This document shows, piece by piece, positions 7,601 through 10,600 of a DNA stretch of 64,000 nt. This DNA is from Yuukianura sp. NJ FZ-2021 (taxonomy: Eukaryota): positions 9,114,001-9,178,000 of the forward strand of contig CM102285.1 of the NCBI GenBank assembly GCA_046563655.1, read 5' to 3'. The notes under the pieces were generated by a model. It ran no database searches. It had not been told where the DNA came from and was given only the letters and a program-made list of their open reading frames with translations. Numbering within the stretch: position 1 is the stretch's first letter; every line of letters begins with the position of its first letter. Made by a program: the position numbers and the translations under genes.

Positions 7601-10600
7601 GGAAGATTTCTTTTCTAAGGAAGGTATTGCACATGAGAAGACTGTTCCCTACTGTCCTGAATCAAATGGCAGGGCAGAGAGACATGTCCGAATTTTGAAG
7701 GACACTGCAAGGACACTGCTTCAGCAGAGCAAGCTTCCAGAATATCTTTGGGGTGAAGCCATTGCTAATGCTGTTTATATCAGAAATCGACTAATTAACA
7801 AACAGAGTCCAGAGAAAACACCGTTTGAAAGGATTTTTGGAAGAAAGCCGTTCCTCGGTCATGTTCGGATTTTTGGGAGTAAAGCTTTCTCCCATGTTCC
7901 TAAACAACAGAGAAAAGTTTGGGACTCAAAGTCGAAAAAACTAACCTTGGTTGGCTATGACTCACTATCAGTCAAAAAGTACAGACTGTACGATGCTGAG
8001 TCACGTCAGATTGTCTTTGGTCGTAATGTCAGTTTCGTTGAAAAGAAACCTAAGAGCAACGGAATTTTAATTCCATTGCCGATGAATGACATCACGAAGG
8101 AAGAGGTCAAGGACACCGAGCCCATAATAACTGAAGTGTCTGACGAAGATGAAGTTGAAATTCAGAATTCAAAAACGGATGTCGAAAAGCAAGGAGTCAA
8201 ATTGACAATTTCGAAGGTTGATGGACAATACGTAGCCAATCTTCCAAATTCTGTTGTGGAGAAGTTGCATCATATGACCTTGAGAGATCGGTCTTCAATT
8301 CCCAAACCAGACTACTATCAGGCCAATGTCACGATCAACATTCCTGATCCAAACTCATTCACGGAGGCTATGAAGTCTCCTGAAAAGGACACTCGGGAAC
8401 TGGTTGACAACAAGAAAATTAAAATCAGCTACGTCTCTACGGACAATCAGAAAGCTGATTTTCTCACAAAACCTCTTCCAAAATCAAAATTTGAGGACAT
8501 GAAGAGAATGAGTGGACTAACCATTCGGATGCAAACACCGAAAAATACTACTGGAAATTCAAGCAATTTTGCAAAAGTTTTACTTTTTCTGATGCTTGTC
8601 GCCGCTGGAATTCCTCAAACAGATCCAATTGGAATGCAGAAACCTCAGTTCGTTCTTTGGACAAAAACGAATGTCCCGGTCATCCAGGGGTCAATGAGGT
8701 TCGTCTTCTATTTCAGTTCACACGTCCTTGTGACTTGCTGACGACTGAGATGATTCACCCGGACTTACTTCAAATGGCAAAAATAAGATGCACAGAAATT
8801 TACGAAAAACTTTTTATTTCGGAGATGGAAAAATTTTGTCCACCAAAATTGCTGACTGACCTTCATCAGGTATCAAAAAGAGGAATTTTTGTTTTCATTT
8901 TGGGAGCAATTACAGCCACCATCTTAGCCAGCTTTGGACTTGGCGTGGCGGGTGTCGTTACTGCTGTTCAAGCTCAAGGTCAAATTCAAACTGTTTCAGA
9001 AATTTTGGCTCAACAAGACCTTGAAATCAAACGCCAACAAAAACTTGCTGAGTTTCATGATAAGGCGATCGAGGCCTTAATGAAATTTTCAACTGGACTT
9101 GCTGAGGATGTTCAGAAAATTGAAAATGATCTTATCAAATTGAAAACAAAATCCATTGACACAAATTTTATTGTCTCCTACATCTCATCAAGATTGGTCA
9201 TTGGAAATCACATCGTGAAGGAAGCACATCGAAAATGGGATTTTAATTCCATGCATTCGCCATTTTTCGATTTTCTGAATTATTCTCTTCCGTGTGAGAA
9301 GAAATGTCCAATTGACCTTGGATATCCGAAACAATGTCATATGGATTTGAAGAAAGAAAATTTGTACATGGAATTCACTGTTCCAGTCATAGATGACGAT
9401 TTGGTATTGGTGAAAGCCGAACCGTTCTTTCTCCGGAAGGTGATCAACAATCTCACCTGCACCATTCAATATACTGGACCAGAAAATGCAATTATTTCAT
9501 TGCGAGACGATTGCGTCTATGACATCAACGTTCGTTATACAGACAAGGATGACCTCATACTTGCCCCGGAACACAAATGTTTGGCGTCTGATGACCTGCC
9601 TCAAACGTCCAAATATTTCGCAGTAGATCGATGTCTTCCATACCGTAAAAATGATGCCATTGATTTTATTCAAGTCAAAACTATGGGAGGAAACAATTTT
9701 ATTTATTGTTCTGGCAATCAGATTGAAATTGCAGGAAAGAAACGAGACTGTCCAGATGAAGTTTTTCTGCTGTCCAGAATGACTGAATTCAAAATCAATG
9801 ACTTCCGGTATTTGGCATCTACCTTGGACCTAACCGAAAAGGAAAAACTGGATCCCATTTTTACGACTCACGCAAATTGGCATTTGGAACCCACACTCAA
9901 CATAACTCAGCTTATGGAAGAGAGTGGCCTTTCTGAATTGGAAAAACAACGCCCAAAAGAGGATATCAATGACCGCGAAATCTCTTCCCACGGCTTGTAC
10001 TGGAAAGAAAATGCCTGGATGGCAATTTTGATTGGATTAATTATGATCGGACTGATCATCGCTTCTGGATTTTTGGTATTTCGGGTAATGCAGCTGAAGA
10101 AGATGAAGCCTACATTCAAAATTACGGCTGAACAAGTCTCGGATGCCTTGGAAATCCAGCCCCTTAGCAATACTTCCAATACTAGGTCATAGGTCATAAG
10201 ATTGAGGGAGGGAATGAAGGAGGTCAATCTTTGACCTTTATTCTCTTTTCATTTTTCTGCCCTTGCTCAAAGAGTCTACGTGACTCAGAGCGTTTCTTTT
10301 GTTTTTATGACAATATTTATGTTAACGCTATTAAGATAAAATTCCTTCCAGAAAGATCTGGAGGACACAGAATCTTCTAAGGATGATTCAATTTCAATCC
10401 TTCTAGAATATTCTTTTAGAACTACGGAGTTGACCTGGTTTAAAAACTAAGGGTTCTACCGATTTGTTCTCAGTCGGGATTTCAGTTTAATAAAACACAC
10501 TTATTGCCAAAACTCGAAAAGATCCATTTAGAATTACTATATGATTCTTAAAGTAATTCTATCATCCTAAGCTGGAATGGATTTCATTACACAAGAAAGA

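What the first reader, a model, noticed from the sequence alone, without database searches (positions are those of the whole stretch)
8454..8741. Env signal peptide is fused in frame to the RNase H C-terminus: possible single Gag-Pol-Env polyprotein
Seen: copia pol normally stops shortly after ADxxTKxL...F...LGL. Here the frame continues through [33 protein letters not shown]...[12 protein letters not shown] with no stop and overlaps the env frame, which is open from 8495. One extra G in GGGG (8687-8690) gives [19 protein letters not shown]. Inference: Env could be released from a polyprotein by signal peptidase or protease at an internal signal sequence, unlike the usual separate spliced env ORF. 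Alternatively it could be made from a subgenomic RNA starting at ATG 8508 or 8529.
Basis: partly seen in the sequence, partly recalled or inferred. Interest (0 to 1): 0.78.

Follow-up and report, generated by a model that had tools for sequence, protein, structure and literature searches.

The report
Copia retroelement with gag-pol-env in one frame
This is the junction between the polymerase tail and the signal peptide of a paramyxovirus-like envelope protein in a defective copia-type retroelement, and many relatives also encode capsid, polymerase and envelope as one protein, which is unusual for such elements.

Summary
Window 4658-10564 is a 5.9-kb Ty1/copia-type LTR element. At 8454-8741 the pol frame runs without a stop from the RNase H tail (ADFLTKPL...) into a signal-peptide-like segment and the first residues of Env. 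The rest of Env lies one frame away, with the break at about 8681-8699.

- This copy lacks RT and nearly all of RNase H (deletion junction 8389/8390).
- Its gag and pol frames are also split, near 6390.
- At both splits every laid public contig is one letter longer than the window, which puts gag, pol remnant and env in one frame.

The arrangement is lineage-wide. A profile search found 709 Env relatives. Of 92 that keep the Env N-terminus, 38 are fused in frame to copia pol and 22 to gypsy pol; 13 are full copia gag-pol proteins with Env at the C-terminus, 11 of them with near-complete Env (1862-2005 aa). Env is F-type (paramyxovirus-like) by profile and fold.

A one-ORF Gag-Pol-Env is well supported. 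Release of Env through the internal signal peptide is inferred, and no RNA data could be laid to test a spliced env mRNA.

Closest precedents are Atlas virus (BEL/Pao, one ORF), SIRE1 (copia, stop-codon suppression) and gypsy/TelKA F-type env. I rate this a new variant of a known kind.

The parts
4653..4657 (+). Target-site duplication TCCTA (second copy at 10565-10569)
   Evidence: Read. An empty-site joint 4651->10564 is present in contigs of X1, X2 and X4.
4658..5007 (+). 5' LTR, 350 bp, TG...CA
   Evidence: Alignment: 351 columns, which also include the base before each LTR, with 1 mismatch (4730 against 10287). Also.
5010..5021 (+). Primer-binding site TGGTAGCAGAGG, 2 nt after the LTR
   Evidence: Sequence. 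Complementarity to the 3' end of animal initiator tRNA-Met is recalled, not tested; no tRNA gene lies in the window.
5022..5832 (+). Long leader carrying four copies of a 13-nt motif (5390, 5447, 5476, 5537)
   Evidence: 4 matches against 0.58 expected; 1 of 100 shuffles reached 4.
5833..6390 (+). gag, first part (copia-type capsid), gag frame
   Evidence: PF14223 at 1.5e-20 on P0001 residues 39-179. ATG at 5833.
6390..6394 (+). First frame break (gag frame to pol frame) at a short A run
   Evidence: All laid contigs are one letter longer here: X1 773.9 of 773.9, X2 197.7 of 197.7, X4 115.7 of 115.7, X3 472 of 472. Sequence. In relatives, gag continues into the zinc knuckle and PR in one frame.
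6395..8388 (+). Gag zinc knuckle, protease, integrase and the first residues before RT, pol frame
   Evidence: on P0002: zf-CCHC 69-84, Pol_BBD 142-225, gag_pre-integrs 253-320, rve 333-432, SH3_retrovirus 494-565. No RVT_2.
8389..8390 (+). Junction of the internal deletion that removed RT and most of RNase H (2-nt overlap, no GT..AG)
   Evidence: loose ends. Before 8389 (X1, X2, X3) a 30-mer reads, by my own translation..TKHIDVRYH. Behind 8390 (X2) another reads QSMKAMTKNG, which looks like an RT N-terminus.
8391..8528 (+). Remnant tail of RNase H / Pol C-terminus ([46 protein letters not shown])
   Evidence: The same tail precedes the Env signal peptide in 35 copia-type relatives.
8529..8689 (+). 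Env start in the pol frame: Met 8529, signal-peptide h-region [12 protein letters not shown] (8577-8612), then the first mature residues (..[14 protein letters not shown])
   Evidence: ATGs at 8499 and 8508 lie further upstream in the same frame.
8685..8690 (+). Second frame break (pol frame to env frame)
   Evidence: X4 record 30 (8602-9105) is identical to the window apart from one length difference.
8690..10192 (+). Env body in the env frame: basic site SKR (8876-8881), fusion-peptide-like [24 protein letters not shown] (from 8882), long helix, Cys-rich beta domain, TM at about 10013-10081, stop at 10190-10192
   Evidence: Profile against PDB, top matches F0. AF2 model with mean pLDDT 74. 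Foldseek, listed top matches all paramyxo/pneumovirus F.
10204..10214 (+). Polypurine tract GAGGGAGGGAA
10215..10564 (+). 3' LTR

Best explanation
Window 8454-8741 is the Pol/Env junction of a Ty1/copia-type LTR retroelement (4658-10564) that carries a paramyxovirus-F-like envelope gene.

Shown: in this lineage gag, pol and env form one open reading frame. The Pol C-terminal tail (RNase H end) runs without a stop into a short signal-peptide-like hydrophobic segment, followed by the Env ectodomain.

Shown: the window's copy is a recently inserted, defective derivative. It has lost RT and most of RNase H through an in-frame internal deletion. As the window reads, it is split into three frames by two one-letter length differences from all laid contigs.

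Inferred: the full-length RNA is translated into a Gag-Pol-Env polyprotein. When the internal signal sequence emerges, the ribosome is targeted to the ER and Env is translocated. Signal peptidase frees the Env N-terminus, possibly after ..LVAAG by my own reading of the small residues at -3 and -1. Env is later cut at the basic site in front of its fusion peptide. Gag-Pol is left carrying the hydrophobic segment as a membrane tail until the element's protease or a host protease trims it.
For: Anatomy of the window copy:
- LTRs, TSD, PBS and PPT are present.
- Copia-type gag, PR and IN are found, with no RT.
- The pol frame is open through the signal peptide.

The Env N-terminus lies in the pol frame and the rest in the env frame.

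All laid contigs are one letter longer at about 6390 and at 8685/8686. By arithmetic this puts window frames 1, 0 and 2 into one frame. X4 carries a different organism label and study from X1-X3.

X3 record 22 joins 104 letters of RNase H to 8389-8625 without any length change.

Relatives:
- 709 hits at E<=1e-3.
- Of 25 long hits scanned, 12 are copia gag + PR/IN + RVT_2 with Env at the C-terminus (1741-2005 aa). Two more are copia-type without one end, and 10 are gypsy-type. P0135 adds a thirteenth. In two of the 13 (P0033, P0135) the Env part is truncated.
- Of 92 hits with an Env N-terminus, 38 are fused to copia pol, 22 to gypsy pol, 3 to unclassified sequence, 24 start at Met near the signal peptide, and 5 are fragments.
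- They come from 6-8 kb contigs of several sources.

The uncharged run at the junction is of signal-peptide length in fused forms (median 15 for copia, 13 for gypsy) and in Met-start forms (median 12).

No Met lies in the 40 residues before the run in 8 of 38 copia and 13 of 22 gypsy fusions.

Env tree: the fused state spans a deep copia-associated group (30 fused of 48 rows). Met-start rows are scattered among them: 15 changes against a shuffled mean of 18.

Env is F-type.

Precedent for a one-ORF Gag-Pol-Env: Atlas virus (PMC9094657, passages read).
Against: No RNA or protein data were available, so translation of the fusion and cleavage at the signal peptide are inferred.

Three in-frame ATGs (8499, 8508, 8529) lie just upstream of the signal peptide, so independent initiation on a shorter mRNA is possible.

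Of 92 relatives, 24 begin with Met near the signal peptide. One of them (P0004, locus L001) has a stop three codons upstream and no pol within 950 bp.

The database proteins are ORF calls, so fused forms are easy to see. Unfused forms cannot be told from copies truncated by a mutation.

My copia/gypsy classes rest partly on simple motif patterns of my own.

Thirteen of the 14 substitutions in the one full-length sibling contig across the junction were not shown, so a stop there is not excluded.

X1-X3 may be the sample the window was assembled from. Contigs drop rare variants, so the window's own length at the two breaks may be real.

The tree was made with FastTree only.
Confidence: 0.6

Rival explanations
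1. Env is made in the usual way for LTR elements, from a spliced or subgenomic mRNA. It would start at ATG 8508 or 8529, or at an AUG supplied by an upstream exon. The missing stop between pol and env would then be tolerated overlap of no functional importance, and any Gag-Pol-Env made from genomic RNA would be a by-product.
For: [quoted passage not shown]

In-frame ATGs lie just before the signal peptide.

Of 38 copia junctions, 30 have a Met within 40 residues before the hydrophobic run.

Of 92 relatives, 24 start at Met near the signal peptide.

L001 shows a stand-alone env with its own start.
Against: If Env were made separately, a stop ending Pol would cost nothing. Yet 60 of 92 relatives, spread over deeply diverged branches, have none.

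Eight of 38 copia and 13 of 22 gypsy fusions have no nearby Met.

Where the ORF is continuous, ribosomes translating Pol must run into Env, so the fusion is made in any case.
Confidence: 0.3
2. The continuity is an accident of one degraded copy, a pseudogene in which the pol stop was lost, and says nothing about the family.
For: The copy is defective, with RT and RNase H deleted and two frame breaks. Only a few codons separate the pol tail from the first env Met.
Against: The LTRs differ at 1 position of 350. A TSD is present and an empty site exists in three runs, so the insertion is young.

The same junction without a stop occurs in 35 copia-type relatives that keep the RNase H tail.
Confidence: 0.04
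3. The two frame changes are programmed ribosomal frameshifts at the short homopolymer runs.
For: Both breaks lie at short runs of one letter, and both would need a shift in the same direction.
Against: Every laid contig has the length that needs no shift.

Relatives encode the whole protein in one frame.

The first break lies inside gag, upstream of the zinc knuckle, which is not where gag/pol shifts occur (established knowledge).
Confidence: 0.03

Closest known systems
Atlas virus and related nematode BEL/Pao endogenous viruses (Belpaoviridae)
   Same: [quoted passage not shown]
   Different: Atlas has BEL/Pao pol and a phlebovirus Gn-Gc-like class II Env in a nematode host. Here pol is Ty1/copia-type (IN before RT) and Env is an F-type class I fusion protein. 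The neighbouring host gene looks arthropod-like.
SIRE1 (Sirevirus, plant Ty1/copia)
   Same: A copia-type element whose env-like ORF follows pol in the same frame. Env-like protein can be made only by ribosomes that come through pol (PMC2829016, passages read; it cites Havecker and Voytas 2003, which I did not read).
   Different: SIRE1 has one stop codon between pol and env and uses stop-codon suppression. It is a plant element whose env-like protein has no known viral relative. Here there is no stop, and Env is homologous to viral F proteins.
Ty3/gypsy elements with F-type Env (errantiviruses; rotifer TelKA)
   Same: The same kind of Env: signal peptide, basic cleavage site, fusion peptide and a paramyxovirus-F-like fold (PMC13524379 and PMC5408684, passages read). 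Twenty-two gypsy-type relatives of this Env were found here.
   Different: These are described as gypsy elements with separate GAG, POL and ENV ORFs. The passages I read mention neither a pol-env fusion nor copia elements with this Env; term searches for 'fused', 'single ORF', 'same ORF' and 'polyprotein' in PMC13524379 gave 0 hits. Its supplementary tables were not opened and may bear on this.
Polyproteins of flaviviruses and alphaviruses with internal signal sequences
   Same: The proposed mechanism: an internal signal sequence after a cytosolic protein directs the following glycoprotein into the ER, and signal peptidase cuts it (established knowledge, recalled).
   Different: Those are RNA viruses with unrelated proteins. 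This is an analogy of mechanism only and was not tested here.

Membership tests
Ty1/copia (Pseudoviridae) LTR retroelement | Copia-type gag, and pol with integrase upstream of RT (PR-IN-RT-RNase H) | tested here: met
   Window: PF14223 gag, then Pol_BBD, gag_pre-integrs, rve and SH3_retrovirus in that order. RT and RNase H are deleted in this copy, but RVT_2 follows IN in 12 full-length relatives and in P0135.
Ty1/copia (Pseudoviridae) LTR retroelement | LTRs ending TG..CA, short target duplication, PBS and PPT next to the LTRs | tested here: met
   350-bp LTRs with 1 mismatch, 5-bp TSD TCCTA, PBS-like 12-mer and purine tract. The tRNA assignment of the PBS is recalled only.
F-type (paramyxovirus-like) class I fusion glycoprotein | Pfam PF00523 Fusion_gly at or above its gathering score | tested here: not met
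   No hit for the window's Env at E<=0.01. Relative P0052 scores 24.7 bits against a cut-off of 29.8.
F-type (paramyxovirus-like) class I fusion glycoprotein | Similarity to solved F proteins by profile and by fold | tested here: met
   A profile of 30 sequences against PDB gives Fusion glycoprotein F0 as top hits, E 1.8e-4, over the fusion peptide plus first heptad region. Foldseek on the AF2 model (pLDDT 74): the listed top matches are all paramyxo/pneumovirus F, best E 7.8e-6, but TM is only 0.2-0.3. Atlas feature search: Fusion_gly clusters at 0.95-0.97.
F-type (paramyxovirus-like) class I fusion glycoprotein | Signal peptide, basic cleavage site directly before a hydrophobic fusion peptide, C-terminal TM | tested here: met
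   Read. The window and P0005 have only ..SKR before the fusion peptide, whereas most relatives have R-x-K/R-R. Cleavage itself is not testable here.
One-ORF Gag-Pol-Env retroelement (as in Atlas virus) | No stop codon or frame change between gag, pol and env | tested here: inconclusive
   As the window reads there are three frames, with none broken by a stop at the junction. All laid contigs have the lengths that give one frame. Thirteen full copia gag-pol relatives carry Env in the same ORF. A natural full-length sibling from this genome could not be read end to end.
One-ORF Gag-Pol-Env retroelement (as in Atlas virus) | BEL/Pao pol and phlebovirus-like Env | tested here: not met
   Copia Pfam families and an F-type Env.
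SIRE1-type expression by stop-codon suppression | A single in-frame stop between pol and env | tested here: not met
   No stop in the pol frame from 6357 to 8738, and none in 35 copia-type junctions of relatives.
Errantivirus / TelKA (Ty3/gypsy with env) | Ty3/gypsy pol (RT-RNase H-IN, RVT_1) | tested here: not met
   The window has copia-type domains only. Gypsy-type pol is found in 22 more distant Env relatives.

The most novel reading that the evidence does not exclude
A widespread clade of animal Ty1/copia retroelements, not found in the papers I searched, and a sister set of Ty3/gypsy elements, carry a paramyxovirus-F-like Env. They would make it only as the tail of one Gag-Pol-Env polyprotein, with no env mRNA. 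An internal cleavable signal peptide would do what it does in flavivirus polyproteins. It would leave Pol tethered to the membrane where Env is inserted, coupling particle assembly to the envelope.
Probability: 0.3. Interest if true: 0.8.

Novelty: new variant of a known kind. Interest (0 to 1): 0.66.

Why it matters
Retroviruses and env-bearing LTR elements are generally described as making Env from a separate, usually spliced, message.

A deep and widespread group of copia-type elements, with related gypsy-type ones, in which Env is simply the last domain of the Gag-Pol polyprotein would show a second way of expressing an envelope. It borrows the polyprotein logic of positive-strand RNA viruses.

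It would also mean that Pseudoviridae-like elements of animals can carry a true viral fusion protein. In what I read, that is on record only for gypsy and BEL/Pao elements; for copia, only the plant env-like ORFs of unclear function are described.

The question is directly testable with long-read RNA, ribosome profiling and a microsome translation assay of the junction.

Tried and rejected
- Whole-genome search for sibling copies: no genome is held for this window. The window contains no second copy.
- Word-based protein search with Env: 1 hit at near lengths (P0004) and none among longer proteins. The exhaustive profile search then found 709, so the word search had simply missed them.
- Metagenome scan: only the contig of P0004. 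Viral-contig scan: 91 pattern matches, none confirmed. A first try with the 30-sequence alignment was too diverse to give patterns.
- Sequencing runs: 5 DNA holders from 2 studies and no RNA holder listed. Expression and splicing could not be examined, and this is no evidence either way.
- Read laying listed only 40 of 233 substitution sites, so stops in sibling contigs across 8389-8625 could not be checked.
- A 2A-like NPGP motif at the junction: 0 of 79 junctions (38 copia-fused, 22 gypsy-fused, 19 Met-start).
- Splicing as the origin of the RT/RNase H deletion: the flanking letters of full-length contigs show a 2-nt overlap and no GT..AG (my reading). I read it as a plain deletion.
- Programmed frameshifting: rejected (see rivals).
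- Earlier notes of this scan: nothing by place, sequence or words.
- tRNA and Rfam scans of the window: nothing found.
- Literature: I found no paper describing a copia element of animals with F-type Env or a copia one-ORF gag-pol-env. The library lacks most subscription journals. The supplements of PMC13524379 were not opened.
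Full report
**What is at the coordinates**

Three overlapping forward ORFs cover window 5803-10192:
- a gag frame (5803-6876),
- a pol frame (6357-8741),
- an env frame (8495-10192).

The pol frame ends ...[86 protein letters not shown]..., and its first stop is at 8739-8741. The env frame is open from 8495 but has no Met and no hydrophobic N-terminus of its own before 8750.

**The element**

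Window 4658-10564 is an LTR retroelement.
- It has 350-bp LTRs (TG...CA) that differ at one position.
- A 5-bp target duplication TCCTA flanks it.
- A 12-nt PBS-like sequence lies 2 nt after the 5' LTR. I recall that it is complementary to the 3' end of animal initiator tRNA-Met, but did not test this.
- A purine tract lies before the 3' LTR.

Pfam finds copia-type gag (PF14223). In the pol frame it finds a zinc knuckle, protease barrel, GAG-pre-integrase, integrase core and the retroviral SH3-like domain, but no reverse transcriptase or RNase H. The 'RNase H C-terminus' of the finding is therefore only a remnant of about 45 residues.

The neighbouring host sequence has about 38% G+C and few long ORFs. 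One exon-like ORF matches tRNA (cytosine-5) methyltransferases. Its best named matches are arthropods, at 45-58% identity. I infer weakly that the host is an invertebrate animal, probably an arthropod.

**What public reads add**

Contigs of four DNA runs were laid on 4458-10764. X1-X3 are one sample of organism A, which may be the sample behind the window. X4 carries another organism label and comes from another study.

1. At about 6390, every contig is one letter longer than the window: X1 773.9 of 773.9 depth, X2 197.7 of 197.7, X4 115.7 of 115.7, X3 472 of 472. The site lies in a short run of one letter.
2. At 8685/8686, every contig is again one letter longer, in two variants: X1 356.2+420.3 of 776.4, X2 103.4+108.1 of 211.5, X4 4.97 of 4.97, X3 no cover. 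X4 record 30 (8602-9105) is otherwise identical to the window.
3. With these two lengths, window frames 1, 0 and 2 become one frame. That would give one ORF from the gag ATG (5833) to the env stop.
4. Whether the window's own lengths are real or a consensus error cannot be decided. Contigs drop rare variants.
5. Loose ends before 8389 (X1, X2, X3) and behind 8390 (X2) show copies that continue into sequence the window lacks. By my own translation these read ..TKHIDVRYH (RNase H end) and QSMKAMTKNG (RT start). The window copy is thus an in-frame deletion derivative. The junction shows a 2-nt overlap and no GT..AG, so I read it as a plain deletion and not as a spliced-RNA copy.
6. An empty-site joint 4651->10564 appears in X1, X2 and X4. 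Together with the near-identical LTRs, this shows that the RT-less copy inserted recently and must have been mobilised in trans.
7. X3 record 22 links 104 letters of RNase H to 8389-8625 with 14 substitutions and no length change. In a full-length sibling the RNase H tail and the signal peptide are therefore in one frame. Only one of its substitutions (8547, no stop) was listed, so a stop there is not excluded.

**The hydrophobic segment is the Env signal peptide**

Homolog P0004 (519 aa, 38% identical over 419 residues) has Met, a hydrophobic N-terminus..VLW..PV..G, and then N.V.L...PCD as one chain. The pol-frame tail aligns to its residues 5-50 and the env frame to residues 46-451.

A profile of 29 relatives, built without the window's row, matches the pol frame at profile positions 5-42 (8583-8699) and the env frame at positions 37-529 (8681-10180). 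The uncharged run [12 protein letters not shown] has 12 residues, which is signal-peptide length and not anchor length.

**Env is a viral-type fusion protein**

- The profile search against solved structures puts paramyxovirus and pneumovirus Fusion glycoprotein F0 on top. E is 1.8e-4, and the match aligns the region after the basic site to the fusion peptide and first heptad repeat.
- An AlphaFold2 model (mean pLDDT 74) has an 80-residue helix and a beta-rich domain.
- The listed top Foldseek matches are all F proteins of measles virus, metapneumovirus, RSV, parainfluenza viruses and henipaviruses. The best E is 7.8e-6, although TM is only 0.2-0.3.
- The language-model atlas gives Fusion_gly clusters at 0.95-0.97.
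- The Pfam gathering score is not reached.
- The window and its nearest relative P0005 (43% identity) have only ..SKR before the fusion peptide. Most relatives have R-x-K/R-R.

**The arrangement is lineage-wide**

The exhaustive profile search found 709 relatives at E<=1e-3, and 150 were listed.

- Of 25 long hits scanned with Pfam, 12 have copia gag, PR, IN and RVT_2 with the Env match at the C-terminal end (1741-2005 aa). Two more are copia-type but incomplete. Ten are Ty3/gypsy-type with Env at the end. One has no Pfam family. P0135 adds a thirteenth full copia form. In two of the 13 (P0033, P0135) the Env part breaks off early.
- A look-up of ten of them shows that nine come from single 4.6-8 kb contigs (JGI, ENA, Logan, NCBI). 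I infer that these are contiguous ORF calls. The tenth is named 'Copia protein, partial [Folsomia candida]' and may be an intron-containing gene model.

I then classed the 151 proteins (the 150 listed plus P0004) by Pfam results plus two simple motif patterns of my own. Ninety-two hold the Env N-terminus:

| Class | Count of 92 |
|---|---|
| Continuous with copia pol | 38 |
| Continuous with gypsy pol | 22 |
| Continuous with unclassified upstream sequence | 3 |
| Begin with Met near the signal peptide | 24 |
| Fragments | 5 |

- In 35 copia junctions, the distance from the ADxxTK motif to the conserved ..VLW.. is 41-139 residues. It always includes a hydrophobic run.
- Three of the 35 have no Met between the motif and the hydrophobic core.
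- With another measure, 8 of 38 copia and 13 of 22 gypsy fusions have no Met in the 40 residues before the run.
- No 2A-like motif was found in any of 79 junctions.

A FastTree tree was built from 82 Env rows. Six short rows and the five fragments were left out. It splits at a starred branch into two groups. One has 48 rows: 30 copia-fused, 15 Met-start, 2 unclassified and the window. The other has 34 rows: 22 gypsy-fused, 6 copia-fused, 5 Met-start and 1 unclassified.

Met-start rows are scattered among the fused ones, with 15 changes against a shuffled mean of 18. This fits secondary truncation better than a separate lineage. A small group of four, including P0004, is the exception. The contig of P0004 has a stop three codons before its Met and no trace of pol in the 950 bp upstream. 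Stand-alone env genes therefore also exist.

**How it most likely works**

Shown: there is one ORF at the family level, and no stop at the window's junction. The Env N-terminus has signal-peptide character whether it is internal or N-terminal.

Inferred:
- Ribosomes that translate Pol on the full-length RNA continue into Env.
- The internal signal sequence takes the nascent chain to the ER.
- Signal peptidase frees Env.
- Pol keeps a hydrophobic tail until it is trimmed.

Where the ORF is continuous, the fusion must be made whatever else happens. What is open is whether it is the functional source of Env or a by-product alongside a spliced message. The second is the usual route for ORF3 of LTR elements (PMC5408684, passage read). 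I put the polyprotein route at about 0.6 and the spliced-message rival at about 0.3.

**Comparison with what is known**

- A one-ORF Gag-Pol-Env is in print for Atlas virus and eight other hookworm BEL/Pao elements (PMC9094657, passages).
- A copia element whose env-like ORF is reached only through pol is in print for soybean SIRE1, which has one stop codon and uses suppression (PMC2829016, passages).
- F-type Env is in print for gypsy-type elements (PMC13524379 and PMC5408684, passages). Term searches for 'fused', 'single ORF', 'same ORF' and 'polyprotein' in PMC13524379 gave 0 hits, and that study selected Ty3/gypsy elements only.
- Four full-text searches found no paper on an animal copia element with F-type Env or on a copia gag-pol-env single ORF. 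The library lacks most subscription journals, and I opened no supplements.

I therefore rate this a new variant of a known kind.

**Verdict**

The particular copy is defective. The interest lies in the family pattern it points to.

Noticed in passing
window 8389-8390, with 4651/10564: The copy has lost RT and RNase H but keeps gag, PR, IN and env. It has near-identical LTRs and a TSD, and an empty site is present in three runs, so an RT-less derivative that retains env was mobilised recently in trans. Three database relatives are also copia-type Env fusions without RT (P0019 from Folsomia candida, P0061, P0145).
   Followed up: partly
window 5390-5549: Four copies of a 13-nt motif (GGGTTNNAGTCCC, one with a mismatch) lie in the 825-nt leader between the PBS and the gag start, against 0.58 expected. 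Their function is unknown.
   Followed up: partly
relatives P0079, P0087, P0095, P0102, P0117, P0119, P0120, P0125, P0129: In gypsy-type Pol-Env fusions a conserved basic motif (RRSxRxxK-like) at the end of Pol lies only a few residues before the Env signal peptide, often with no Met between.
   Followed up: partly
L001 958-2514 (P0004), with P0006, P0009, P0024: A small group of Env relatives stands alone with its own Met. In L001 there is no pol within 950 bp upstream and a stop three codons before the Met. These may be env genes detached from elements or taken over by a host.
   Followed up: partly
window 5344-7025: Contigs of X1, X2 and X4 join 5344 to 7025 with 21 other letters between. 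This looks like another deletion derivative of the family, lacking gag and the protease start.
   Followed up: no
window 8323: Contigs of X1, X2 and X4 leave the window's sequence behind 8323 with a shared different continuation, suggesting a second subfamily that differs just before the RT start.
   Followed up: no
window 49483-49971 (- strand): An exon-like ORF matches tRNA (cytosine(34)-C5)-methyltransferase (NSUN2-like; PF01189). The best named matches are arthropods at 45-58% identity.
   Followed up: partly
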